Below, in pieces: positions 4,455 through 29,968 of a stretch of DNA of 64,000 nt; the first letter of the stretch is position 1, and each line of letters opens with the position of its first letter. Below the pieces are notes generated by a model. The model searched no databases, had not been told where the DNA came from, and was given only the letters and a program-made list of their open reading frames with translations. The stretch is from Parcubacteria group bacterium GW2011_GWA2_42_14 (GTDB taxonomy: Bacteria; Patescibacteriota; Minisyncoccia; Sungbacterales; GWA2-42-14), in assembly GCA_000998135.1 (NCBI GenBank), contig LCCV01000004.1:21681-85680 (forward strand), given 5' to 3'. A program made the translations under genes and the position numbers.

Positions 4455-5918
4455 TCATAAAATTTTTTCCAATTGCGCGGCTATATTAAAAACTCTATCC
4501 TCCTGAAACCACGGGGCGATAAACTGGATTCCGACCGGCAATTTTTTACCTTCTTGCTCAACCCCTCGGCCATGCTCGGGGTAAACCCATCCGGCATTCA
4601 TGGAAAGGCCGGGCAAGCCCGCTAAATTGACGGCAACCGTGTAAATATCGGCCAAATACATTTTTAACGGGTCATCAGTTCTTTCTCCGAATTTAAACGC
4701 GGGGGTCGGAGAGGTCGGCCCGGCAATGATATCAACTTCTTTAAACGCTTTTTCAAAATCTTCTTTAATTAACCGCCTGACTTTCTGGGCCTTAAGATAA
4801 TAAGCGTCATAATAACCGGCGGAAAGCGTATATGTTCCGAGCATTATCCGTCTTTTTACTTCATCTCCAAAACCCTCGGCCCGCGTTTTAGCGTAGATAT
4901 CGTATAAACTTGTTTCTTGTCTCTTGTCGCTTGTCACTAATCCATACCGGATTCCATCAAACCGCGCGAGATTAGCCGATACTTCCGCCGGCATAATTAT
5001 ATAGTATGCGGCTAAAGCATATTCAGATATAGGCAAAGATATTTCCTTTATTTCATGGCCCAAGTCCTGAAGTTTTTTTATCGCATCACGTACAATTTTT
5101 TCTACATCAGAATCAAGGCCCTGACCAAAATACTCTTTAGGCAGTCCGATTTTGAATTTAAGATTTGGGATTTGGGATTTGGGATTTGATTCGACAGTTG
5201 TCGAATCTAACGGGTCTTTTCCCTTAATCACATCAAAAACAATTTTGGCGTCTTCAGCTGTTTTGGTTAAAGGACCGATTTGGTCAAGCGAAGAAGCCAT
5301 TGCTATAAGACCAGAACGCGAAACCATGCCATAAGTCGGTTTTAGGCCCACAACTCCGCAAAAAGAGGCGGGCTGACGGATGGAGCCACCGGTATCAGAC
5401 CCAAGGGCGGAAATACACATGTTTGCCGCAACAGCCGCGGCAGAACCGCCGGAAGAGCCGCCCGGAACGCAAGATGGGTCATGGGGATTTTTAGTCGGTT
5501 TAAATGCGGAATTTTCGGTTGAAGAACCCATGGCAAATTCATCCATATTGGTTCTGCCCAAAAAAATCGCACCTGTTTTTTTCATACGGGCAATAGCAGT
5601 CGCGTCATAGGACGCTTCGTAGTTTTCCAAAATTTTTGACGCGGCCGAGACACGTTTTCCCTCAATAAAAATATTGTCTTTAACAGCAAAAGGAATGCCC
5701 CAAAGAGGGGGCAATTCGTTAAAATCGGACGTTGCTCCATCCAGCCGTTTTGCTTCATTAAGCGCGTCTTCCCCATAGACCTCGAGATAGGCATTCAGTT
5801 CTTTATTTTTATCAATCGCTTTCAGGCAATCAGAAACAAGCTCTGCTATGGAAAATTTTTTGCTCCGTAAACCATCCTGAACTTGTTTAATTGTTAATTC
5901 GCAAAGCTCCATTCTCAT
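4455..5918 (-). CDS. gatA: Glu-tRNA(Gln)/Asp-tRNA(Asn) amidotransferase subunit A
   Basis: Amidase signature GGSSGGSAAAVA. 487 aa. Ends in TGA. Contains a repeat-derived in-frame insert (5148-5220). Confidence 0.9.
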   Translation of the reverse strand: MRMELCELTIKQVQDGLRSKKFSIAELVSDCLKAIDKNKELNAYLEVYGEDALNEAKRLDGATSDFNELPPLWGIPFAVKDNIFIEGKRVSAASKILENYEASYDATAIARMKKTGAIFLGRTNMDEFAMGSSTENSAFKPTKNPHDPSCVPGGSSGGSAAAVAANMCISALGSDTGGSIRQPASFCGVVGLKPTYGMVSRSGLIAMASSLDQIGPLTKTAEDAKIVFDVIKGKDPLDSTTVESNPKSQIPNLKFKIGLPKEYFGQGLDSDVEKIVRDAIKKLQDLGHEIKEISLPISEYALAAYYIIMPAEVSANLARFDGIRYGLVTSDKRQETSLYDIYAKTRAEGFGDEVKRRIMLGTYTLSAGYYDAYYLKAQKVRRLIKEDFEKAFKEVDIIAGPTSPTPAFKFGERTDDPLKMYLADIYTVAVNLAGLPGLSMNAGWVYPEHGRGVEQEGKKLPVGIQFIAPWFQEDRVFNIAAQLEKIL

Positions 5919-6987: not shown

Positions 6988-9219
6988 TCATTTAATAATA
7001 TTTAAAAATTCTTCCTCACTCAATATTTTTACTCCAAATTTCATGGCCTTATTATATTTTAAACCCGGATTTTCACCAGCAACGACATAATCAGTTTTTT
7101 TGTTTACACTTTCAGATATTTCTCCGCCCAAATTGCGGATTTTTCCTTTGGCTTCGTCTCGCGTGAACGATTCTAATTCCCCGGTCAGAACAAACGTTTT
7201 ATCTTTAAACTTGTGTTTTTTTGGTTTTTGGGATTCAATTTTAATTTTTAAGCCAGCTTTTTTAAACCTGTTTAAAAGTTCCCGATTTTTTTTGTCCCGG
7301 AACCAGTTATAAATGCTTTTGGCAACGACACCGCCTATGTCTCGGATTTTTTCCAGTTTTTCCGGTGAGGCCAAATTTAAAGCATTAATTGAACCGAAAT
7401 TTTTGGCAAGGTCAATTGCCGTTTCTTCTCCGACATGATGAATTCCGAGAGAATAAATAAAACGGTTTAATTCAATCGTCCTTTTTTGATTTATGGACGC
7501 GATTAACTTAGAGGCGGATTTTTCGGCAAAACGCTCCAGCGGCTCCAGTTCTTCTTTTTTCAGAGTAAAAATATCAGCCGCGTTTTTAATCAGTCCCGAT
7601 TCAATCAGCGCGTCAATTATTTTCGGGCCGAGACCCTGTATATCAAAAGCTTTTTTGGAAATAAAATGATAAAGTTTTTCGCGCTCTACCGCGCCGCAAT
7701 TTTTATTGGAGCAGTAATAGGCAACGCTAAATTCCTGTTTCTTGTCAGCGCTTTCTATTTTTTTTACCGGCGAGTTGCATACGGGGCAATGAAGCGGCAT
7801 ATGAAATTCTTTCGCGTTTTTTGGGCGCAGACGCCGCAAAACTCCGGTAACCGCGGGAATCACGTCTCCGGCCCGTTCGACTATGACCGTATCGCCGGTT
7901 CTCACATCAAGTCGGCGAATTTCATCTATGTTATGAAGAGTGGCATGAGTAACGGTTACTCCGCCTATTCTTACCGGTTTTAATGTTGCCACCGGAGTTA
8001 AAACTCCGGTTCTTCCGACCTGAACGATTATATTCTTAACAATGGTTGTCGTTTCCTCGGCAGGAAATTTGAAAGCGATAGCGCCTCTCGGAGCTTTTCC
8101 CACAATTCCTAATTTTTCAAAAATTTTTCCGTTATTTATCTGTATCACTACGCCATCAATTAAAAAGGGAAGTTTTTCCCTTTTTCTTCCGACCTCTTTC
8201 CAAAATTCAATAATTTCGTTCGTGTTTTTACAATGTTTCGTAAGCGGTACTGTAGGGAAACCAAGTATTCTCATAATTAAATGTTCTTCCTCGTGGGTTT
8301 CTTGGCCGAGATTCGTAACCAAATCCCAGGCAAAGAATTCAAGGTTTCTTGACGCGGTAATTTTTGGATTAAGCTGTCTTATGGAGCCCGCGGCGATATT
8401 TCGGGGATTGGCAAAAACCGGCAACCCTTTCTTTTTCTGTTCCTTGTTTGCCGCGTTAAACGCGTCTTTGGGCATATAAACTTCGCCTCTTACTTCAATT
8501 TCAGTAATTTTATGGATTGATGAGAGGAATTGCTTAACGCGCGGATATTTTTCAAGAATAATTTTTATTTCCTTGTGTTTTTTGGATAATTCTACGATAT
8601 TTTTTTGTATGCTCAGCGGGATTGATTCCACTGTTTTTAAGTTTTCCGTAACGTCTTCGCCGGTAATTCCGTCTCCGCGGGTTGACCCCGTTAGAAGTTT
8701 AAATAAAATGTTACTTGATTCAAGGGGCATAAGGCGAAAGCCGTTTTGCTTTAAGCTGTTATTGTCATAGTTGGCGTGTTGCCGGACTCCTAACCGGATT
8801 GAGCCGGTTTTAAAAACGCCGTTTTTATAAATGAGAGATACGGCAAAACCGTCGCCCTTGGCTTCGGCAAAATAATCTAATTCTGAAACATGAAACTTGA
8901 AATCTGAAACAAGTTTTTTGATACGGGTTTCCCATTCATGAAGTTCTTCTTCGGAAAAAGCGTCATTTAAAGAAGTCATGCGAACCGTATGCGCAACTTT
9001 TCTGAATTTTTCCAAAGGATTGCCGCCGACCCTTTGCGTCGGCGAATCCGGTGTTAAAAACTCGGGGAACTGTTTTTCGAGTTTCATCAGTTCGTTTTTT
9101 AGGGAATCCAAAGCGGCGTCGGAAATTTCCTGTTTGTCCAAGACATGATAAAGATAGCGGTGATAATTGATTTCTTTTTTTAGTTTTTCTATGCGATCAA
9201 AAACCCTTTTTTTATCCAT
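6988..9219 (-). CDS. ligA: NAD-dependent DNA ligase
   Basis: 743 aa. Adenylation K-x-DG region, Cys4 zinc finger (CPVCNSP...CSNKNCG), HhH and C-terminal BRCT. Ends in TGA. Confidence 0.9.
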   Translation of the reverse strand: MDKKRVFDRIEKLKKEINYHRYLYHVLDKQEISDAALDSLKNELMKLEKQFPEFLTPDSPTQRVGGNPLEKFRKVAHTVRMTSLNDAFSEEELHEWETRIKKLVSDFKFHVSELDYFAEAKGDGFAVSLIYKNGVFKTGSIRLGVRQHANYDNNSLKQNGFRLMPLESSNILFKLLTGSTRGDGITGEDVTENLKTVESIPLSIQKNIVELSKKHKEIKIILEKYPRVKQFLSSIHKITEIEVRGEVYMPKDAFNAANKEQKKKGLPVFANPRNIAAGSIRQLNPKITASRNLEFFAWDLVTNLGQETHEEEHLIMRILGFPTVPLTKHCKNTNEIIEFWKEVGRKREKLPFLIDGVVIQINNGKIFEKLGIVGKAPRGAIAFKFPAEETTTIVKNIIVQVGRTGVLTPVATLKPVRIGGVTVTHATLHNIDEIRRLDVRTGDTVIVERAGDVIPAVTGVLRRLRPKNAKEFHMPLHCPVCNSPVKKIESADKKQEFSVAYYCSNKNCGAVEREKLYHFISKKAFDIQGLGPKIIDALIESGLIKNAADIFTLKKEELEPLERFAEKSASKLIASINQKRTIELNRFIYSLGIHHVGEETAIDLAKNFGSINALNLASPEKLEKIRDIGGVVAKSIYNWFRDKKNRELLNRFKKAGLKIKIESQKPKKHKFKDKTFVLTGELESFTRDEAKGKIRNLGGEISESVNKKTDYVVAGENPGLKYNKAMKFGVKILSEEEFLNIIK

Positions 9220-9284: not shown

Positions 9285-9396
9285 ACCCGGCCCTAATTCC
9301 GAAAATAGTTTACCGCTATGCCATAAGTTAAATCGCGGTATCGCCCGCGGCTTACTTTTTATAAGCGCAGAATTATAACTTAAGAATTAGAGCCGG
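9285..9396. repeat. MITE-like repeat, family F2 (ACCCGGCCCTAATTCCGAA ... GAATTAGAGCCGGG)
   Basis: About 112 bp with 14-bp terminal inverted repeats. Second copy at 18602-18713. Confidence 0.6.
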
Positions 9397-9466: not shown

Positions 9467-10621
9467 TTAACACTGCCACGCCGGATCTCCCGGGTCTCCG
9501 GTCGGCTTTTTATAGTTATATTCCTTTAAAACTTCATTATCCTGAAGGGTTTTTGAAAAAATTTTTATTTCATCCATAATTCCCTGGAAATTCTGGGCTA
9601 AATTATCAATATTTAATCCGAGTCGCAGCGGTTCATTGCCCTGAGTCAGACTTTCTCCGCGGGGGATAGGAGAGCCTAAAATAATGCCGTTTATATAAAA
9701 TCTTACCTGCGACCCGTCGTAAGTAACCGCGGCATGCGTCCACCTGTTGAGGGTGGTTGCTCCGACCGCGGCGGAATCAGTCGTGAATTCCGTTCCGGCC
9801 GAATCTTTAAATTTAAAACGCAAGTTAAAATTTCCGGTTACCGGCTGGAACAGATAAAAACCGTATGTTTCTTCGGTAGCCCCCGCTCCTTTTTTTAAAA
9901 TAGTTTTGTATCCGTTGACAGCGCTTTTATTACAAACCCAGGAGGTTATGGAAATCGGCCAGTTGAGATTTATGCTTGATGAATTTGGAAACGTTACGCG
10001 GTCATTTTCCGTGTCAAAATACTGCAGTGCTCCGCCGAATACTACCAGCGGAATCGTATTTTGTCTTATTGGGTCTTCTGTTTCAACGCTTGTGGAAAGA
10101 CCCAAAACGCCGTCATTATCGTTGGCCGTCCAGTCAAAAACCGTTTGGCTTGATTCATTGTCAAATCTCCACCAGCCCGCCAAGTTCTCTGCTTCAAGCA
10201 TGGGATACTTAAAAAAGAACGAGCGCTTGGAAAGAAATGAGGAAGTTGTGTCACAGGGCGATCCTCCCGGATATTGTCCTACTCCTAGAATTTCAGTGTA
10301 GCCGGTTCCGGTTTTTTTTGACACTTTTACCGAATTGCAGGCGTTGTTGGAGGCGGTTATTAGCGGGGTGGTCCAGCAATCGTTTGAAAGATTCTGACAA
10401 ATGGCACGGGAAACTCTGTCAAGATAAACCGTTTTTTCAACTATTTCGTCAGCCGCGTAAAGCGCGAAAAACGATGCTCGTATGTCGCCGGAAAGCATAA
10501 GTTCGCTGTAAATAATATCAAATATTCCGAGGGAAATTGAGAGCATTAAAGAGAGCAAAAAGACGGTAAGGAGAAGACTTATACCTCGTTCTTTTTTTAA
10601 TTTTTTCTGCCGCGCTTTCAT
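9467..10621 (-). CDS. pilus-associated protein: N-terminal hydrophobic pilin-like segment plus C-terminal LamG (concanavalin-like) domain
   Basis: MKARQKKLKKERGISLLLTVFLL... N-terminus. C-terminal RFYINGI...FQGIMDEIKIF resembles LamG. Last gene of the pilin operon. The upstream in-frame ATG at 10660 lies inside repeat F1. Confidence 0.5.
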   Translation of the reverse strand: MKARQKKLKKERGISLLLTVFLLSLMLSISLGIFDIIYSELMLSGDIRASFFALYAADEIVEKTVYLDRVSRAICQNLSNDCWTTPLITASNNACNSVKVSKKTGTGYTEILGVGQYPGGSPCDTTSSFLSKRSFFFKYPMLEAENLAGWWRFDNESSQTVFDWTANDNDGVLGLSTSVETEDPIRQNTIPLVVFGGALQYFDTENDRVTFPNSSSINLNWPISITSWVCNKSAVNGYKTILKKGAGATEETYGFYLFQPVTGNFNLRFKFKDSAGTEFTTDSAAVGATTLNRWTHAAVTYDGSQVRFYINGIILGSPIPRGESLTQGNEPLRLGLNIDNLAQNFQGIMDEIKIFSKTLQDNEVLKEYNYKKPTGDPGDPAWQC

Positions 10622-10630
10622 ATTGTTTTT

Positions 10631-10752
10631 AAATCCAAAATCCCAATATCTAAATCTCAAATAAATTCAAATTTCAAAATTCAAATTAGTTTCGGCATTT
10701 GGTCACTTGATTTTTGATATTATTTAGGATTTGAGATTTTGAATTTGGAATT
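10631..10752. repeat. MITE-like repeat, family F1 (second copy)
   Basis: Aligns with 6845-6958 over about 115 bp. Confidence 0.65.
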
Positions 10753-10763
10753 TTAAAGGAATT

Positions 10764-11342
10764 TTAAAGGTTGACATCTCTCACTCTCTGCGTTACCGTT
10801 GTCTGCAAATTCATCGTGGTGTAAAGCCGGAGCTTGGGGTCAAAGGCCTTGGCTTTGAAAGAAATGGTTAAGCGGGGCTGGCCGTCATCGCCGGCAGAGT
10901 CAGTTCCGGTAACCCTTATGATTAACGTTTCAACAATAACTTCCGGCGCGGTTACCGGAGTGCCGTTGGCGCAATCGGGGTCAGTTGTCCAATTGTTTAT
11001 TTTATAAATTCCGCCTGGTAAATCGGGGTCGGGTCCGCTCGGACCATCGGGGTCGGGCGGGTCATAAAAAGCATATCCTATCGCGTTATTGAACTGGTCG
11101 CGAAAATTAATTTGGGTATTGCTTTGTCCGTTGCAGGCCTCAAGCAAAAAACCGGTTCCGGTTCTTATTTCTTTGGTAATGGATTCAATCCCGAATCTGA
11201 CGTTATCCACGACATTTTGAATGGCCGCGGCTTTATATTGGGCGTTTTTGGCGGCAACTAAAATATTGGCGGTTACCATCGCCACGAAAGCAAAAATTCC
11301 CAAAGCTACGGTTGTTTCAAGAAGTGATACTCCGCGTTTCAT
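10764..11342 (-). CDS. type IV pilin-like (minor pilin or pseudopilin)
   Basis: MKRGVSLLETTVALGIFAFV: class III signal, G then VSLLE with Glu at +5. Confidence 0.65.
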   Translation of the reverse strand: MKRGVSLLETTVALGIFAFVAMVTANILVAAKNAQYKAAAIQNVVDNVRFGIESITKEIRTGTGFLLEACNGQSNTQINFRDQFNNAIGYAFYDPPDPDGPSGPDPDLPGGIYKINNWTTDPDCANGTPVTAPEVIVETLIIRVTGTDSAGDDGQPRLTISFKAKAFDPKLRLYTTMNLQTTVTQRVRDVNL

Positions 11343-11409: not shown

Positions 11410-12078
11410 TTATCTCCAATTATATAATATCTCCGTTTGCACGAGCGTGCGCGAAATCGAGCCGTCCTGCCAAAGTATGGTAACATCTACTTTTATACGG
11501 TCCGAAGCGGGAATAGTGGTGCTTGTGCCGGAACAAGGCGCGGGACCGGGAGGGTCAATACAGACGGTTTCAGGACCAGGGTCAGAAATAGTTATTTTCC
11601 TTTTAAAAGTAGTAACTTGCGGATTAGGGTCGGCAAGGCAGCTGTAGGCGTATAATCCGTAGTTGGGATAAGTGGCTGTTGGCGGAGTTTGGCAGAAATT
11701 CAAAAAACGACCGGAGGCGCCGAAAGCAATAAGTCTTGGTTCAGCGTCAGTTAAATCATAAGTTGCGTCAACTTCCCAATTTCCGTTGGCAAGGGTTGTG
11801 CAGTTAGAAGAAGTATCGGTAATTGCCCTCCAATCAGGATCAGGGTTTTCATCGAAGTCAGCTCCGTCAGGTCCTACGCAAGACGCAAGAACATTGGAAT
11901 CCCGGAAATAACGAATCATTTCAATTCCTTCCTGCGCCAAGTTGGCGGCGACCAGACGATTTTTCGCGGATTTGGAGGAAAGAATGCCCCGGGATATAAG
12001 CATAAACGGACCGATAACGGCGGCAATAATAATGGTAAGAGCGACGATGGATTCAATTATGGTGAAACCCTTCTTCAT
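11410..12078 (-). CDS. type IV pilin
   Basis: MKKGFTIIESIVALTIIIAAV: canonical prepilin peptidase site G/FTIIE. Confidence 0.75.
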   Translation of the reverse strand: MKKGFTIIESIVALTIIIAAVIGPFMLISRGILSSKSAKNRLVAANLAQEGIEMIRYFRDSNVLASCVGPDGADFDENPDPDWRAITDTSSNCTTLANGNWEVDATYDLTDAEPRLIAFGASGRFLNFCQTPPTATYPNYGLYAYSCLADPNPQVTTFKRKITISDPGPETVCIDPPGPAPCSGTSTTIPASDRIKVDVTILWQDGSISRTLVQTEILYNWR

Positions 12079-12145
12079 GAATCATGAATCATGAATCATG
12101 AATCATGTTTTATATTACATGTTCCATGTTTCATGTTTCATCATA
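12079..12145. repeat. heptamer tandem repeats (ATGAATC)x4 and (CATGTTY)x3 abutting the pilin start codon
   Basis: Read directly from the sequence. A degenerate version lies at 11341-11375, upstream of the second pilin. Confidence 0.8.
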
Positions 12146-13465
12146 TTATGGTATTTTACTCCACAACTCCTTAATTCGCGAGCCAATTCCAGATTTCTCT
12201 TCTAATTTACCCGAAACAATTTGATGTTTCTTAAGCTCGTTTTCAAAATCTTCCCGCGTTAAATTTTTTGCGCCAACACCGCTGAACTCTTTGATAGATT
12301 CAAACGGCAAACCAAACTTTTCATAAAAGTAAAAGGCAATCGGAGCATCAATCAATGAATTTTCGGATTTCTTTTTTAACAGCTCTTTCAGCCCCTTAGC
12401 CATCATTTCCGTGAAACCAAGGCGCTCTTTTTTTATTATATCATTTATAATCCTGATTGAGTCCGCCGGATTTTTAAAATCGCTGTTATAAAGTTTAACC
12501 ATTTTTTCAATAATTTCTTCAAACAGACCTTCTGTAATTTTTATCAATCTTTCGTATACGAATAATCTTCTTAATAAATTCCGGATGCCGATTTTAAGCA
12601 ATTGTTCCGATTCGCCAGCCGGAATTTCGTTGGCCAGAAAACAAACGGCGCGAAGATGGTCTACCGCGATTCTTTTTTGCCGTTCCGTTAAAGCGGTATT
12701 TTGAAGCGGCAAAAATAGGCCATCAAAAATATCGGTTTCAAAAACATTTGATTTTCCATTGGCAACGGCGGTTAATCTTTCGAGGCCGGTAACGCTCGCA
12801 ATGCCTTGAACATCAAGACGTTCAATTTTTCTAATATTTTTTCCGGAAATAAGTTTTTTGTGCGTATCCGGAAAATAATAATCAACAAACACAACGTTCC
12901 AGACGCCAATATCTTTTATATAAATTTCGGAGGTAGAGCCGCAAATTCCTTCGTCGCCGGCCGGCCCCCAAAAATTTTCTTTCAGGCCGAGCCGCTGGAT
13001 ATAAGTTGCCCCGAGTTCTTTCCATATATATTCTGAATCTTTATCCAAAGAAAAACCGGAACCTCCGCTAAAAATCGTCACGTAATCTATGAAAATATTC
13101 AGATTTTTGAAAAAATCGCTTGTTATTTTTATGGCGGTTTGTTTTTTGTATCCGCCAAAAGTTAAGGCCGTGAGCATTTCAAAAAAAGTAAGATGCGAAT
13201 TATCGCCGACATTTTCGGCGTCTTCCGGACGAAAACAGTATTGGGAAGAAACCGCGTTGGGCGCCCCTAGCGGCTTATTTAGGCGCGGTTCAGGGTCGTC
13301 CAGGGGATTGATTTCTGACTTGAAATATTTTTCAAAATATTCAATGCCGGAAGAAGTTAAAAGTTTTTTTTGGTTATCAAAAATAAGAGGAGCCGATGGA
13401 ACAAAAATATGTTCCCGTCTTTCAAAAAATTCAAAAAAGCGCCGTTTTAAATCATGACTCTTCAT
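12146..13465 (-). CDS. alanyl-tRNA synthetase catalytic-domain-like protein (truncated, divergent)
   Basis: 439 aa aligns to the AlaRS N-terminal region: N-term ...FFE...H..VPS, HLTFFEMLTALTFGGY, NFWGPAGDEGICGSTSEIY, VWNVVFVDY and TGLERL. It lacks the GGKHND block, and the conserved Asp before TGMGLER is Val. No editing or C-Ala domains follow. Confidence 0.6.
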   Translation of the reverse strand: MKSHDLKRRFFEFFERREHIFVPSAPLIFDNQKKLLTSSGIEYFEKYFKSEINPLDDPEPRLNKPLGAPNAVSSQYCFRPEDAENVGDNSHLTFFEMLTALTFGGYKKQTAIKITSDFFKNLNIFIDYVTIFSGGSGFSLDKDSEYIWKELGATYIQRLGLKENFWGPAGDEGICGSTSEIYIKDIGVWNVVFVDYYFPDTHKKLISGKNIRKIERLDVQGIASVTGLERLTAVANGKSNVFETDIFDGLFLPLQNTALTERQKRIAVDHLRAVCFLANEIPAGESEQLLKIGIRNLLRRLFVYERLIKITEGLFEEIIEKMVKLYNSDFKNPADSIRIINDIIKKERLGFTEMMAKGLKELLKKKSENSLIDAPIAFYFYEKFGLPFESIKEFSGVGAKNLTREDFENELKKHQIVSGKLEEKSGIGSRIKELWSKIP

Positions 13466-13568
13466 TACTTAAATTCTACAATATATGGCTATTTTTACCA
13501 CAGTAAAAATATTTGGCCTCGCAATGCGCCGCGTTGATTTTTCTTGACTTTTCCGATATAATTGTATC

Positions 13569-15473
13569 ATGGAAAATGGCTTCCTCAAAGAAAAATACGG
13601 CCTGCATAAAAGTCCGGAGGTGGAGCAAGCCGCAAAACGGACGGAAGTTCGCACAGGCGAAAAGGTTCCACAAAACCCGGAGACACGCATCCAAAACTAC
13701 CTTGATCGCTTGCAAAATATCATCAACCCCAAGGAATTAGGGGGGCATCCGAACTTCGATAGATGCGAACGGAATTTAGAAATGCTAAAACACTCCCTTT
13801 ACGATAAATTCGTCATCAAGCCGGAGGAAATTCCCGAGGGTTATTTTGAAAATCAACGCCGCCTTGCCCGCGAGCAGGGTCATGGCGATATTGAAATCAC
13901 GCGAGATATGCGCGATCGGTTTGCCGAAGTAATCGTTTCCGATCAAAGAAGCACTCTTGATAACTGGGTTGACTATCTCGCCTCACCGGACGCGACATAT
14001 CCAGACTGGCTTAAGTACTATGCCATAAGAAGCGTTCTTAGTATGGGCGAGTTTGATAAGGATAAAAAACAATTCACAAAACGCTCTAAAGGAACAACTA
14101 AACCATTCCCAGACCTCAATCGCGAAGCGTTGGCGTATGTGCTTGATGCGATTGAGAAAAAATACAAAGGAGAAAAACCCGGCCTTGTCGTAATTGAAGC
14201 CGAAGACAAAGACAAATTTGAGAAACTTCTGCAAGGCGAAAACTTTGCCAAGCTTTACACTTGGGCGATTGAAAAAGTAACTCCCGCATCTAAGGAAGCG
14301 CTCGCTGATACTCGCGGGAAATGGGTGAAATATCTAAAAAGACAGGATCACATGCCGCTTGTGAAATCCCTTCAGGGCCATGGCACCAATTGGTGCACGG
14401 CCGGAGAATCAACCGCCAAAGCGCAACTCGAAAACGGCGATTTTTACGTCTACTACTCATTAGACAAAGACGGCAAACCAACCATCCCGAGAGCTGCCAT
14501 TCGTATGAAAGAAGACCGGATTGCAGAGATTAGGGGTGTTGCTGATAAAGAACAGAATATGGATCCGTATATCACGCCCGTAGTTGAAGCCAAGCTCAAA
14601 GAATTTCCCGACGGCAAAGTATACGAGAAGAAAACACTCGACATGAAAACACTTACGGTAATTGAACAAAAAACTAAGACTGGTGAAAAATTAACGAAAG
14701 CTGATCTCCTTTTTCTCTACGAAATCAATACGTTCATCGAGGGCTTCGGTTTTCATCCTGATCCGCGTATAGCAGAGTTGCGAGCGCAAAGAAATATAAA
14801 AGAAGATATGCCAGTTGTTTTTGAATGTACTCCAGAACAAATCACGTACACTCCGGACGGTATCAATGAAAACACCAAAGCATATGTTGGCAAGCTCGAG
14901 CCAGGCATATTCCAAAAGTTGCCGGAGAATCTTGAACATATTTACACTTCCTTTCCAAAAAATAAAATCCGCAAGGAAAATATAGAAATCGGTGGCAAGA
15001 CCGCTGAACAATTATTAAACGAGCTGGAACAAGCCGGCATCATAACCGATTTCGCTAAAGATATGTTTCGAAGTCGCGACTTTGTTGCAAGTAAAAATAT
15101 CGAAAGCGCAACTCTCATCCGCCTAACCGTCGCCGACCTTGGATTTACGACAGACGTTAACAACAATAAGATCTACCAGCGGGCAGAAGAACTTGGTTTG
15201 GAACTATGTCCATCCGATGTCGGACCTCATTATTATCTCAAACATCAAAATCAGCCGAGGAACAAGATTAACGAATGGGTGGAAATCGGCATGAAGCAAA
15301 TAAACGCCCATGGCGAACAGTGCGTATTCTTGCTGGCACGCTCCTTCGACGGTATGTGGCGAGATGGCGTTGTGTCCAGATCTGATGACTGGCGTAGTAG
15401 TCCGAACCATAGGATTGTGTTCCGTTTTCGTCGTTCGACCCCTTCGATAAACTCAGGGCATGCAAACTCATGA
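13569..15473 (+). CDS. hypothetical protein, 634 aa, with GC content noticeably above its neighbours
   Basis: Long clean ORF. No domain recognised. GC is roughly 45-50% locally against about 35-38% in flanking genes. Confidence 0.5.
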   Translation: MENGFLKEKYGLHKSPEVEQAAKRTEVRTGEKVPQNPETRIQNYLDRLQNIINPKELGGHPNFDRCERNLEMLKHSLYDKFVIKPEEIPEGYFENQRRLAREQGHGDIEITRDMRDRFAEVIVSDQRSTLDNWVDYLASPDATYPDWLKYYAIRSVLSMGEFDKDKKQFTKRSKGTTKPFPDLNREALAYVLDAIEKKYKGEKPGLVVIEAEDKDKFEKLLQGENFAKLYTWAIEKVTPASKEALADTRGKWVKYLKRQDHMPLVKSLQGHGTNWCTAGESTAKAQLENGDFYVYYSLDKDGKPTIPRAAIRMKEDRIAEIRGVADKEQNMDPYITPVVEAKLKEFPDGKVYEKKTLDMKTLTVIEQKTKTGEKLTKADLLFLYEINTFIEGFGFHPDPRIAELRAQRNIKEDMPVVFECTPEQITYTPDGINENTKAYVGKLEPGIFQKLPENLEHIYTSFPKNKIRKENIEIGGKTAEQLLNELEQAGIITDFAKDMFRSRDFVASKNIESATLIRLTVADLGFTTDVNNNKIYQRAEELGLELCPSDVGPHYYLKHQNQPRNKINEWVEIGMKQINAHGEQCVFLLARSFDGMWRDGVVSRSDDWRSSPNHRIVFRFRRSTPSINSGHANS

Positions 15474-28310: not shown

Positions 28311-28390
28311 TGTCATCCTGAGGCCGTAGAGGCCGAAGGATCTCTTATTCGATTATTTTTTAGAGATTCTTCGCTTCGCTCAGAATGACG
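28311..28390. repeat. MITE-like repeat, family F3 (CGTCATTCTGAGG ... GAAGAATCTC ... GAGATTCTTC ... TCAGAATGACG)
   Basis: Nested inverted repeats. Other copies at 42337-42429 and 44187-44269. Confidence 0.6.
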
Positions 28391-29968
28391 TCAGAAAAAT
28401 TGGCAACCTATGCGCCAGTAATCGGCCTAGAAATTCACGCTGAACTAAACACCAAAACCAAGATGTTTTGCGATTCTTTGAATGACCCGGATGAAAAACA
28501 TCCCAATCTTAACATTTGTCCTGTTTGCATGGGGCATCCCGGAACTCTGCCCGTCATCAATCAGGAAGCGGTAAAAAAAGTAATTCAGGTGGGTTTGGCG
28601 CTGGGAGGAGAAATTCCGGAATTTTCGCAATTTGACAGGAAGAATTATTTTTATCCGGATTTGCCCAAGGGGTATCAGATTTCGCAATATAAGTATCCGC
28701 TTGTTCAAGGCGGAGTTTTAGAGATTGGCGGCAAGAAGATTCGCATTACCCGAATCCATCTTGAAGAAGATGCCGGGCGGCTTATTCATGAAGGAGGCCC
28801 TTCGACAAGCCCAGGGCGACAAGCTTCGCTTGTTGACTTTAATCGCGCGGGGCGGCCTCTTATGGAACTCGTAACCGAGCCGGATTTAAGAAGTGGAGAA
28901 GATGTTCGTGTTTTTGGGGAAAAGCTTCAGCAGATTTTGCGGTATGTCGGGGCTTCAAACGCTGACATGGAGAAAGGCGAAATGAGGGTTGAAGTGAATA
29001 TATCACTTCGACAAATCCCAAATCCCAAATCCCAAATCCCGAATAAATCCGAAATTCAAAATTCAAATGACCCAAACACCTTCGGTACTAAAGTAGAAAT
29101 TAAGAATATAAACTCATTCAAATACGCGGAGGATGCGGTGAATTATGAAATTAAAAGGCAGACGGAAATTCTTGAAAGCGGAGGGAAAATTGTTCAGGAA
29201 ACAAGAGGGTGGAATGAACGAAAGGGCGAGTCATTTTCCCAACGTTCTAAAGAAGAATCTCATGATTATCGCTATTTCCCCGAGCCGGATTTGCCCCCCT
29301 TGAATATTTCCCGTGAATTAGTTGAGGAATTAAAAGGTTCATTGCGTGAATTGCCGGAAGCAAAAAAATTAAGATTTATTGATGAATATGGTATTGACGC
29401 AAAACTGGCGGAAATAATTGTGCGTGAAAAAGCGTTGGCGGATTATTTTGAAAGCGTTGTTTCGGAAGTTAAAGAATGGGAAGCTTCTACTCCAGAAACG
29501 ATTAAGGTCCAACCTTCCGCGGGAGGTCAGACCCTGAACCTTGCTCGTCTGGCAGCCAATTTTATAACTGGCGATTTTTTGAAACTTTTGCATGAAACTT
29601 CGGCATCTGTTTCGGAAACCTTGATTACTCCTGAAAATTTCGGCGAATTTTTAACATACTTGGCCGAAGACAAAATTTCTTCAGCCGGCGCCAAAATAGT
29701 TTTTGAAGAAATGTTTAGGACGGGTGCTGACCCTTCGGAAATTATCCGCGATAAAAATATGCTGCAGGTAAAAGATAGTTCGGAACTGGAAGCAATAATT
29801 AAAAAAATTATTGAAGCCAACCCCAAACCGGTTGATGACTATAAAAAAGGTGCCCAAAATTCTTTGCAATTTTTGATGGGACAGGTAATGAAAGAAACAA
29901 AAGGGCGGGCTAACCCAAAAATGGTTCAGGACCTGATTCAAAAATTTATTGAAGTCAGACTTCCATAG
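28385..29968 (+). CDS. gatB: amidotransferase subunit B
   Basis: YAPVIGLEIHAELNTKTKMFC..., and a C-terminal GatB/YqeY-type domain. Contains a repeat-derived in-frame insert (29012-29068). Confidence 0.9.
   Translation: MTSEKLATYAPVIGLEIHAELNTKTKMFCDSLNDPDEKHPNLNICPVCMGHPGTLPVINQEAVKKVIQVGLALGGEIPEFSQFDRKNYFYPDLPKGYQISQYKYPLVQGGVLEIGGKKIRITRIHLEEDAGRLIHEGGPSTSPGRQASLVDFNRAGRPLMELVTEPDLRSGEDVRVFGEKLQQILRYVGASNADMEKGEMRVEVNISLRQIPNPKSQIPNKSEIQNSNDPNTFGTKVEIKNINSFKYAEDAVNYEIKRQTEILESGGKIVQETRGWNERKGESFSQRSKEESHDYRYFPEPDLPPLNISRELVEELKGSLRELPEAKKLRFIDEYGIDAKLAEIIVREKALADYFESVVSEVKEWEASTPETIKVQPSAGGQTLNLARLAANFITGDFLKLLHETSASVSETLITPENFGEFLTYLAEDKISSAGAKIVFEEMFRTGADPSEIIRDKNMLQVKDSSELEAIIKKIIEANPKPVDDYKKGAQNSLQFLMGQVMKETKGRANPKMVQDLIQKFIEVRLP

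What the first reader, a model, noticed from the sequence alone, without database searches (positions are those of the whole stretch)
12146..13465. Stand-alone, divergent AlaRS catalytic-domain paralog next to the pilin operon
The 439-aa protein aligns along the AlaRS aminoacylation domain, with the HTFFEML, NFWxMGD..CG.C.EI, WNxVF and TG.GLER blocks recognisable. It stops before the editing and C-Ala domains. It also lacks the GGKHND alanine-binding block and the Asp before TG(M)GLER. This is either a split AlaRS, as reported for Nanoarchaeum, or a catalytically altered AlaRS-like paralog with a different role.
Basis: partly seen in the sequence, partly recalled or inferred. Interest (0 to 1): 0.55.

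Follow-up and report, generated by a model that had tools for sequence, protein, structure and literature searches.

The report
Truncated AlaRS-like gene, altered active site
A groundwater CPR bacterium carries a shortened copy of the enzyme that loads alanine onto tRNA; it has lost the residues needed to bind alanine yet is still kept by selection, so it is probably a repurposed "pseudo-synthetase" rather than a working or split AlaRS.

Summary
The ORF at 12146-13465 (-) is real. It encodes a 439-aa homolog of the AlaRS catalytic and tRNA-recognition domains (Pfam PF01411, 168 bits; model TM 0.73-0.80 to AlaRS fragments). It ends before any editing domain and heads an apparent operon with three type IV pilin-like genes.

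The missing GGKH block is not special: all CPR "small-AlaRS" lack it. Truncation alone is not special either, because "mini" forms with intact active sites occupy the canonical alaS slot in other CPR genomes.

The active site is what differs. E209G, D235A, T236S and G237V (E. coli numbering) are fixed in this protein and its only two relatives (64-67% identical), while about 117 CPR relatives are invariant at E209, D235 and G237. The ATP framework (R69, F90, R242, W170, V214) is kept.

dN/dS of 0.16-0.20 shows purifying selection. The gene lies outside the conserved mnmA-alaS-infA-rpsM block.

Best reading: a lineage-specific paralog that no longer activates alanine. A split AlaRS is not supported. 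I could not establish whether the same genome has a canonical alaS; that is the decisive open test.

The parts
12146..13465 (-). AlaRS-like gene, 439 aa plus stop (P0001; NCBI 'hypothetical protein A3G49_02215', Ca. Sungbacteria RIFCSPLOWO2_12_FULL_41_..)
   Evidence: ORF; PF01411 at 168 bits; exact database match on 23 contigs; AlphaFold model pLDDT 89, pTM 0.87, TM 0.73-0.80 to AlaRS catalytic fragments.
12731..13465 (-). Class II catalytic core (aa 1-245). Retains motif-2 Arg79 (=R69), Phe95 (=F90), Trp166 (=W170), Val192 (=V214), Gly227-Leu-Glu-Arg230 (motif 3, =R242). Has Gly187 (=E209), Ala223 (=D235), Ser224 (=T236), Val225 (=G237).
   Evidence: Alignments with 117 CPR homologs and with deposited human and Methylomonas AlaRS. 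Residue roles from PMC12143591.
12791..12799 (-). Codons for Ala223-Ser224-Val225, which replace the invariant Asp-Thr-Gly (D235-T236-G237) of the alanine pocket
   Evidence: D and G are invariant in 117/117 relatives; the trio has A-S-V. Confirmed against 9jc7 and human sequences.
12905..12907 (-). Codon for Gly187, which replaces the invariant Glu (E209) of the xEIWN strand
   Evidence: E in 116/117 relatives; G in all three orthologs.
12218..12730 (-). Helical tRNA-recognition (ATL) domain (aa 246-416). The PSN..GY acceptor-stem loop is remodelled with a 2-aa insertion; the N303 equivalent is E/N/G in the trio.
   Evidence: Only 74% of >=90%-conserved columns are retained, against 94-100% in controls.
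12146..12217 (-). C-terminal tail (aa 417-439, ..EEKSGIGSRIKELWSKIP) plus stop codon. Conserved within the trio, low model confidence. It takes the place of the linker into the editing domain.
13480..13507 (-). Promoter-like site (TTTACT-16-TATATT) just upstream of the start codon
   Evidence: Consensus scan only; the number of sites is not above shuffles.
11410..12078 (-). Pilin-like gene 1 (222 aa, MKKGFTIIE.. prepilin N-terminus)
   Evidence: NCBIfam IV_pilin_GFxxxE 17.1 bits against a cutoff of 16.3; weak PilV match. 62-69% identical ortholog in the same position in L008.
10764..11342 (-). Pilin-like gene 2 (192 aa)
   Evidence: Weak match to prepilin peptidase-dependent protein. 77-82% identical ortholog in L008.
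9467..10660 (-). Pilin-like/LamG gene 3 (397-aa ORF; called as 384 aa in public records)
   Evidence: Laminin_G_3 at 78 bits; TafC family 68 bits, below cutoff. 82% identical ortholog in L008.
9334..9349 (-). First terminator-like hairpin on the - strand downstream of the four genes; likely end of the operon
   Evidence: Consensus scan. None lies between the AlaRS-like gene and the pilin-like genes.
12075..12107 (.). Heptanucleotide tandem repeat (4.7 copies) in the 67-nt spacer, running into the ATG of pilin-like gene 1
   Evidence: Same copy number in six assemblies; absent from the ortholog locus.

Best explanation
This is a lineage-specific extra copy (paralog) derived from the Patescibacterial 'small-AlaRS'. 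It has lost the editing domain and has a remodelled alanine pocket.

Shown:
- It keeps the AlaRS fold and the ATP-binding framework: motif-2 Arg, the stacking Phe, the motif-3 GLER Arg, W170 and V214.
- It has replaced the acidic residue that holds the substrate's alpha-amino group (D235A), the pocket glycine (G237V), the invariant Glu of the EIWN strand (E209G) and the acceptor-stem recognition loop.
- These changes are fixed in three orthologs.
- The gene is under purifying selection, though a weaker one than on canonical alaS.
- It sits outside the conserved alaS neighbourhood, at the head of an apparent operon with three type IV pilin-like genes.

Inferred:
- It no longer makes alanyl-adenylate or Ala-tRNA(Ala).
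- The organism's real AlaRS is encoded elsewhere.
- The protein acts as a pseudo-synthetase, meaning a ligand-binding (ATP/nucleotide or RNA) or regulatory module comparable in principle to HisZ, co-expressed with the pilin-like genes.
For: - Homology and fold.
- Active site: E209G, D235A, T236S and G237V are fixed in all three orthologs, whereas 116-117 of 117 CPR relatives and the E. coli, human and Methylomonas enzymes keep E, D and G. D235 is described as the essential alpha-amino binder (PMC12143591).
- R69, F90, V214 and R242 are retained, and their ATP/Ala roles are documented.
- Only 66% (catalytic) and 74% (helical) of >=90%-conserved columns are kept, against 94-100% in controls, including intact mini forms.
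- NCBIfam alaS score is 184 bits, against about 320 for the intact 423-aa mini form P0033 over the same span.
- dN/dS is 0.16-0.20, against <=0.05-0.09 for canonical Sungbacterial alaS. The catalytic domain is no better conserved than the helical one.
- Canonical alaS in Sungbacteria, Ryanbacteria and other Parcubacteria lies in an mnmA-alaS-X-Y-infA-rpsM block. None of that block is in the window, and none of the window's neighbours flank canonical alaS in 80 relatives.
- The family is a single 50%-identity cluster among 1.84 billion representatives, and the next hit is a canonical small-AlaRS.
- The order AlaRS-like gene then three pilin-like genes is conserved in ortholog locus L008, and no terminator-like site lies between them.
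- HisZ is the precedent for an aaRS paralog without adenylation activity (PMC9437257).
Against: - No canonical alaS from the same genome was found. It was not among the top 120 hits of three named-database searches, not in the window, and not within 10 kb of its left edge. The paralog status therefore rests on synteny and biochemical expectation, not on a second gene in hand.
- The tree does not resolve where the trio branches, because of a long-branch problem.
- The retained ATP-site residues and the fixed, non-random pocket substitutions would also fit a new catalytic specificity rather than a non-catalytic role.
- The Tupanvirus mini-AlaRS works without the canonical N/D tRNA-recognition residues (PMC10036535), so loss of N303 alone proves nothing.
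- The role of E209 in Mg2+/ATP chemistry is inferred from its invariance and from general class II knowledge. It was not read from a paper here.
Confidence: 0.6

Rival explanations
1. Re-specified enzyme. The paralog is still an adenylate-forming ligase but activates a different small carboxylate, plausibly one without an alpha-amino group since D235 is gone. It would transfer it to an acceptor other than tRNA(Ala), possibly the co-encoded pilin-like proteins.
For: - ATP-site residues R69, F90, R242, G239 and E241 are all retained.
- Pocket substitutions (M43I, Q44E, T172A, E209G, D235A, T236S, G237V) are identical in all three orthologs rather than drifting.
- Purifying selection acts on the catalytic domain.
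- Operon linkage with the pilin-like genes is conserved.
- There are precedents of aaRS paralogs with new acceptors (PMC9437257).
Against: - Loss of the invariant E209, and G237V filling the already tiny pocket, argue against any adenylation chemistry.
- N212 and F89 vary within the trio.
- No carrier protein, transferase or biosynthetic gene is nearby.
- The linkage to the pilin-like genes may be only positional.
Confidence: 0.2
2. Sole, still functional AlaRS. This lineage's only alaS moved, lost its editing domain (like other CPR mini forms) and evolved an unorthodox way of binding alanine.
For: - No canonical alaS from the same MAGs turned up in any search.
- Mini forms without an editing domain do serve as the apparent only alaS in other CPR genomes.
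- The gene is under purifying selection.
- The viral mini-AlaRS is active despite non-canonical tRNA-recognition residues.
Against: - D235, G237 and E209 are invariant across all other AlaRSs examined, and D235 is described as essential.
- dN/dS is 2-3 times that of canonical alaS, and the catalytic core is not the best conserved part.
- The position is non-orthologous.
- All my searches for a second copy were limited to top-120 lists or to flanks of at most 10 kb, so absence is weak evidence.
Confidence: 0.08
3. Non-functional relic. A partial duplicate of alaS on its way to being lost.
For: - Many invariant residues are lost and the rate is elevated.
- The distribution is extremely narrow.
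Against: - The reading frame is intact, with a conserved stop and tail, in three lineages that differ at dS about 0.9-1.4. dN/dS is 0.16-0.20.
- The fold is confidently predicted.
- The sequence is identical on 23 contigs.
Confidence: 0.07
4. Split AlaRS as in Nanoarchaeum. The catalytic piece is encoded here, the editing/C-terminal piece elsewhere, and they assemble into a normal enzyme.
For: - It stops exactly at the domain boundary before the editing domain.
- Split and truncated AlaRS forms exist in small-genome lineages.
Against: - Catalytic residues that a split enzyme must keep are replaced.
- No editing-domain ORF is adjacent or in the window.
- It is not in the alaS slot.
- The trio-specific conserved C-terminal tail replaces the linker.
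Confidence: 0.02

Closest known systems
CPR/DPANN 'small-AlaRS' (catalytic + tRNA-recognition/ATL + editing domain, no C-Ala; bioRxiv 10.1101/2023.05.29.542759; NCBIfam NF002436-type)
   Same: Clearly the parent family. It shares the 4-residue GGKH deletion, the NFWGP(T/A)G, FETD, DH.R and LRR blocks, and lineage-specific insertions. The best non-self hit is a canonical small-AlaRS (P0123), whose own closest matches are Sungbacterial.
   Different: No editing domain. E209G, D235A, T236S, G237V and a remodelled PSN..GY loop. About 1.0-1.1 substitutions per site from every canonical member. Located outside the mnmA-alaS-infA-rpsM block.
Mini-AlaRS (Tupanvirus TuAlaRS, PMC10036535) and the bacterial mini forms seen here (P0033, P0005, P0069 and others)
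   Same: Same two-domain architecture (catalytic plus tRNA-recognition, about 400-460 aa) ending just after the KHQ helix. TuAlaRS also lacks the canonical N/D G3:U70-recognition residues.
   Different: Those proteins keep motifs 1-3 and the alanine-pocket residues, and TuAlaRS is experimentally active. P0033 occupies the canonical alaS slot. The window protein has lost D235, G237 and E209 and sits elsewhere.
HisZ-type aaRS-like pseudo-paralogs (HisRS paralog lacking adenylation activity, regulatory subunit of HisG; PMC9437257)
   Same: A class II synthetase catalytic-domain paralog that keeps the fold but loses residues needed for amino-acid activation, and is kept by selection.
   Different: Different parent synthetase. 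No partner enzyme has been identified. The neighbours are pilin-like genes, not a biosynthetic operon. The resemblance is functional analogy only.
Split AlaRS of Nanoarchaeum equitans and free-standing AlaX editing proteins
   Same: Examples of AlaRS domains encoded as separate genes in reduced genomes.
   Different: Split halves keep catalytic residues and need each other. AlaX is the editing domain, not the catalytic domain. Neither description fits.

Membership tests
Alanine--tRNA ligase (AlaRS; PF01411, NCBIfam TIGR00344 / NF002436) | Homology and fold of the class IIc aminoacylation plus tRNA-recognition domains | tested here: met
   PF01411 at 168 bits. Foldseek TM 0.73-0.80 to AlaRS catalytic fragments 5knn, 1riq, 9jc7 and 3hxu.
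Alanine--tRNA ligase (AlaRS; PF01411, NCBIfam TIGR00344 / NF002436) | Score at or above the curated equivalog cutoff | tested here: not met
   183-184 bits against cutoffs of 457 and 529. A canonical small-AlaRS (L110) scores 564 and 532. An intact mini form scores 317-327. The shortfall is therefore partly truncation and partly divergence.
Alanine--tRNA ligase (AlaRS; PF01411, NCBIfam TIGR00344 / NF002436) | Acidic residue binding the substrate alpha-amino group (E. coli Asp235) and pocket Gly237 | tested here: not met
   Ala223 and Val225 in all three orthologs. D and G are invariant in 117/117 relatives and in the human and Methylomonas enzymes. Role from PMC12143591.
Alanine--tRNA ligase (AlaRS; PF01411, NCBIfam TIGR00344 / NF002436) | Invariant Glu of the xEIWN strand (E. 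coli Glu209) | tested here: not met
   Gly187 in all three orthologs; E in 116/117 relatives and in all 78 non-variant metagenome loci.
Alanine--tRNA ligase (AlaRS; PF01411, NCBIfam TIGR00344 / NF002436) | Class II motif-2 Arg, adenine-stacking Phe and motif-3 Arg (ATP site) | tested here: met
   R79, F95 and R230 align with R69, F90 and R242. Roles.
Alanine--tRNA ligase (AlaRS; PF01411, NCBIfam TIGR00344 / NF002436) | G3:U70-recognition residues (E. coli Asn303 and Asp400) | tested here: not met
   The N303 position is E/N/G in the trio, against N in 117/117 relatives, with a 2-aa insertion in the loop. The D400 position is E, as in most CPR enzymes. This is not decisive alone, because TuAlaRS is active without them.
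Alanine--tRNA ligase (AlaRS; PF01411, NCBIfam TIGR00344 / NF002436) | Alanine activation and tRNA(Ala) charging | not testable with these tools
   Needs ATP-PPi exchange and aminoacylation assays.
CPR/DPANN small-AlaRS | Three-domain architecture with a tRNA_SAD editing domain (HxxxH ... CxxxH) | tested here: not met
   No PF07973. The protein ends at the domain boundary, and no editing-domain sequence occurs in the window.
CPR/DPANN small-AlaRS | Position in the conserved mnmA-alaS-X-Y-infA-rpsM neighbourhood (Parcubacteria) | tested here: not met
   None of these genes is in the window or within 10 kb of its left edge. The flanks are gyrB and a 634-aa unknown on one side, and pilin-like genes and ligA on the other.
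Mini-AlaRS (Tupanvirus type / bacterial P0033 type) | Catalytic plus tRNA-recognition domains only | tested here: met
   439 aa ending after the KHQ helix, like P0033, P0005 and P0069.
Mini-AlaRS (Tupanvirus type / bacterial P0033 type) | Conserved motifs and alanine-pocket residues; demonstrated or presumed sole AlaRS activity | tested here: not met
   Pocket residues are replaced. 66% of conserved catalytic columns are retained, against 96% in P0033 and P0069.
Split AlaRS (Nanoarchaeum type) | A complementary fragment encoded in the genome, and intact catalytic residues | tested here: inconclusive
   No partner in the 64-kb window or the 10-kb flank, and the catalytic residues are not intact. 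The rest of the genome could not be searched.
aaRS-like pseudo-paralog (HisZ-like in principle) | Synthetase fold with loss of activation residues, maintained by selection | tested here: met
aaRS-like pseudo-paralog (HisZ-like in principle) | A canonical synthetase of the same specificity co-exists in the genome, and a defined partner or new role is known | tested here: inconclusive
   The canonical copy was neither found nor excluded. No partner is known; only the operon linkage to pilin-like genes is seen.

The most novel reading that the evidence does not exclude
This divergent, editing-less protein is the only AlaRS homolog in its lineage. In that case, either the organism charges tRNA(Ala) with an enzyme that lacks the universally conserved Asp235, Gly237 and Glu209 (a new active-site solution), or it has lost autonomous alanylation and depends on its host.
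Probability: 0.07. Interest if true: 0.9.

Novelty: new variant of a known kind. Interest (0 to 1): 0.42.

Why it matters
AlaRS is regarded as one of the most architecturally conserved synthetases. The review I consulted (PMC9437257) lists no true paralog of its catalytic domain; the free-standing AlaRS relatives I know of are the AlaX editing proteins.

A selected, active-site-remodelled copy of the AlaRS catalytic domain would add AlaRS to the synthetases that have spawned pseudo-enzymes or new ligases, such as HisZ, EpmA, GluQ-RS and AsnA.

It would also provide a natural experiment on which pocket residues can change while the fold and the ATP site persist.

Its reach is limited. The family is confined to three closely related uncultured groundwater populations, and no function is known.

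A practical lesson for annotation pipelines also follows. In CPR genomes, the missing GGKH block and the missing editing domain do not by themselves mark a non-functional AlaRS, whereas the D235/G237/E209 positions do separate this variant from the rest.

Tried and rejected
**Frameshift joining the ORF to an editing domain: rejected.** The gap to a pilin-like gene is 67 nt, there is no tRNA_SAD-like sequence in any frame of the window, and the stop and tail are conserved in three orthologs.

**Search for a same-genome canonical alaS: unresolved.**
- tblastn of the window found nothing.
- One scan of species-representative genomes with the closest canonical relative returned Sungbacterial alaS genes, but not contigs of the variant-bearing MAGs. 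The scan used peptide patterns specific to the query, so this absence means little.
- A Sungbacteria-profile search of the named database did not list the genome; its scores were flat from 1156 to 991 bits.
- Look-ups of candidates P0004, P0007, P0105, P0119 and P0005 all led to other assemblies.
- A synteny lead from L086 to the left edge of the window found no alaS in the next 10 kb.

**L110-type canonical alaS as the same-genome copy: not established.**
- Its tetranucleotide correlation with the window is 0.988, inside the window's own control range. A second locus carrying the same alaS gives only 0.968, no better than unrelated CPR loci.
- The protein is absent from the NCBI MAGs.
- No shared single-copy genes allow an exclusion test.
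- It is only 33% identical to the variant.

**Phylogenetic placement of the trio: unresolved.** The sister group changes between bootstraps because of long-branch attraction.

**Other negative checks.**
- Defence-system and phage-related roles: no PADLOC hit for the gene or its neighbours.
- T-box or other leader RNA: no Rfam hit except one tRNA-Gly elsewhere in the window.
- Phase variation through the heptamer repeat in the spacer: no copy-number variation in six assemblies.
- Pocket geometry from the model: coordinates are not exposed to scripts.
Full report
**Observation.**
- It matches Pfam tRNA-synt_2c over residues 6-422 (168 bits) and solved AlaRS catalytic fragments (E about 1e-30).
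- An AlphaFold model built on 51 homologs is confident (pLDDT 89, pTM 0.87) except for the last 23 residues. It superposes on human, A. aeolicus, Methylomonas and E. coli AlaRS aminoacylation fragments with TM 0.73-0.80.
- The exact protein is on record as a hypothetical protein of a Candidatus Sungbacteria MAG from Rifle groundwater. It is found on 23 independently assembled contigs, including two NCBI MAGs, always with the same neighbours.
- No frameshift could join it to an editing domain. The next gene starts 67 nt after its stop, and tblastn with full-length relatives finds no other AlaRS-like sequence in the 64-kb window.

**What is and is not unusual.**
- The missing GGKH(ND) block is a 4-residue deletion shared by every Patescibacterial AlaRS retrieved, and the motif-2 arginine next to it is retained. 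These roughly 550-600-aa enzymes (catalytic, tRNA-recognition and editing domains, no C-Ala) are the 'small-AlaRS' already described for CPR and DPANN (bioRxiv 10.1101/2023.05.29.542759).
- Stopping before the editing domain is not unique either. Many 400-450-aa forms with fully canonical motifs exist in CPR metagenomes.
- One of them, P0033, sits exactly in the canonical alaS slot (mnmA-alaS-497 aa-infA-rpmJ-rpsM-rpsK-rpsD-rpoA) with no editing gene after it. A viral mini-AlaRS of this architecture is experimentally active (PMC10036535).

**The distinguishing feature is the active site.** I aligned the protein with 117 CPR relatives and checked the result against deposited human and Methylomonas sequences. 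The query and its only two close relatives (P0002 and P0003, 64-67% identical) carry the following states.

| Position (E. coli numbering) | State in the trio | State in relatives |
|---|---|---|
| E209 | Gly | Glu in 116/117 |
| D235 | Ala | Asp in 117/117 |
| T236 | Ser | Thr in 112/117, Val in 5 |
| G237 | Val | Gly in 117/117 |
| N303 (PSN..GY acceptor-stem loop) | E/N/G, with a 2-residue insertion | Asn in 117/117 |

- M43I, Q44E and T172A are also fixed in the trio.
- The residues that paper assigns to ATP binding and to contact with the alanine methyl group (R69, F90, R242 and V214 in E. coli numbering), and also W170, are all retained.
- Overall, the protein keeps 66% of the catalytic-domain columns that are at least 90% conserved in CPR AlaRSs, and 74% of the helical-domain ones. 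Controls, including the other mini forms, keep 94-100%.
- On NCBIfam alaS models it scores 184 bits where the intact mini form scores about 320.
- None of 78 further AlaRS loci from metagenomes shares these substitutions.
- In an exhaustive search of 1.84 billion cluster representatives, the trio forms a single cluster at 891 bits. The next hit, at 327 bits, is a canonical small-AlaRS.

**Selection and origin.**
- Pairwise dN/dS among the three orthologs is 0.16-0.20, at dS about 0.9-1.4, and the stop and C-terminal tail are conserved. The gene is maintained, not decaying.
- The constraint is weaker than on canonical Sungbacterial alaS (dN/dS at most 0.05-0.09). Unlike the canonical enzymes, the catalytic domain is no better conserved than the helical domain.
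- The nearest canonical sequence by profile score (P0123) is itself closest to canonical alaS genes of other Sungbacteria MAGs, at up to 70% identity.
- A bootstrapped distance tree cannot place the trio. It sits on a stem about 1.0-1.1 substitutions per site from every canonical sequence.

**Genomic context.**
- In Sungbacteria, Ryanbacteria and other Parcubacteria, canonical alaS lies in a conserved block, mnmA-alaS-X-Y-infA-rpsM-rpsK-rpsD-rpoA.
- None of those genes occurs in the window or in the 10 kb beyond its left edge. None of the window's neighbours flanks canonical alaS in 80 relatives.
- The gene is instead followed on the same strand by three pilin-like genes at gaps of 67, 67 and 103 nt. 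One passes the prepilin GFxxxE cutoff and one has a LamG domain.
- No terminator-like site appears until after the third pilin-like gene.
- The same order, with 62-82% identical pilin-like proteins, is found in ortholog locus L008, although the upstream gene differs there.

**Interpretation.**
- The evidence best fits a lineage-specific duplicate of small-AlaRS that lost the editing domain and the ability to bind alanine, and is kept for another role.
- Given the loss of E209 together with D235 and G237, I consider a non-catalytic pseudo-synthetase most likely: a ligand- or RNA-binding or regulatory protein, HisZ-like in principle (PMC9437257).
- A re-specified adenylate-forming enzyme is the main rival, because the ATP framework is intact and the pocket substitutions are fixed rather than drifting.
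- A split AlaRS is not supported.
- A decaying relic is contradicted by the selection data.

**The open point.** I could not show that the same genome encodes a canonical alaS.
- Three named-database searches list only 120 hits each, and none came from the variant-bearing MAGs.
- Five candidate proteins traced to other assemblies.
- A canonical small-AlaRS contig from the same Rifle sample series (L110) has a tetranucleotide signature as close to the window as the window is to itself (r 0.988). A second locus with the same gene gives only 0.968, the protein is absent from the NCBI MAGs, and no shared single-copy genes allow an exclusion test.
- The reading that this is the lineage's only AlaRS homolog is therefore not excluded. 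I put it at about 7-8%. It would be remarkable if true.

**Novelty and score.**
- The aaRS-duplication review I consulted lists no true paralog of the AlaRS catalytic domain. Its AlaRS entry is the aa:carrier-protein ligases, which to my knowledge are SerRS-like.
- This makes the gene a new variant of a known kind, an aaRS-derived pseudo-paralog.
- The family is confined to three uncultured populations and has no known function, so I rate the interest as moderate.

Noticed in passing
L099:5001-6272 (GCA_016204105.1); also L100:166-1377, and proteins P0069, P0125, P0130, P0132, P0151, P0152: Natural bacterial 'mini-AlaRS' genes of 400-450 aa, with catalytic plus tRNA-recognition domains only and intact active-site motifs. 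P0033 occupies the canonical mnmA-alaS-infA-rpsM slot with no editing-domain gene after it. Some CPR bacteria therefore seem to run on an editing-less AlaRS, an architecture whose activity has so far been demonstrated only for the Tupanvirus enzyme.
   Followed up: partly
window 12075-12107: A perfect heptanucleotide tandem repeat (4.7 copies; a looser array extends to 12141) fills the spacer and runs into the ATG of the first pilin-like gene. Each unit contains an out-of-frame ATG. Copy number is identical in six assemblies and the repeat is absent from the ortholog locus L008, so there is no sign of phase variation.
   Followed up: yes
window 13569-15473 (+): A 634-aa ORF divergent from the AlaRS-like gene has no match in Pfam, NCBIfam or PADLOC. 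It is present in all assemblies of this population but not next to the ortholog in L008.
   Followed up: partly
window 6988-9219 (-): The NAD-dependent DNA ligase (LigA, 743 aa) appears to carry an insertion of about 40 aa (..IRLGVRQHANYDNNSLKQNGFRLMPLESSNILFKLLTGS..) immediately before the conserved TRGDG motif of the adenylation domain. This was seen only in the translation.
   Followed up: no
L110:10001-11707 (JGI Ga0209541_10000651, 68.8 kb); also L181, L186: A canonical 569-aa small-AlaRS at about 39% GC, in a metG-like-tatD-alaS-621 aa-class II aaRS context. It comes from the same Rifle sample series, and its tetranucleotide signature matches the window (r 0.988). It could be the missing canonical alaS of this or a related population, but this is unproven.
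   Followed up: partly
L009-L031, L089-L099 (canonical alaS loci): In many Parcubacteria, alaS is embedded in a conserved block: mnmA-alaS-two unknown genes (about 380 and about 500 aa, no Pfam)-infA-(rpmJ)-rpsM-rpsK-rpsD-rpoA-rplQ. This makes a useful synteny anchor for telling the bona fide alaS from paralogs.
   Followed up: partly
window 4455-5918 (-), about 5.9-6.3 kb (-), 28385-29968 (+); L001:16801-17048: gatA and gatC lie next to ligA, while gatB is 22 kb away. This fits the indirect Asn/Gln-tRNA pathway usual in CPR. Two tiny ORFs (48 and 33 aa, the first with a Response_reg hit) between ligA and gatC look like remnants of a response-regulator gene.
   Followed up: no
L008:2098-2127: The public gene call for ortholog P0003 (433 aa) starts too late. 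An in-frame ATG 30 nt upstream gives MRSTELKRRF.., which matches the N-termini of the other two orthologs (443 aa).
   Followed up: yes
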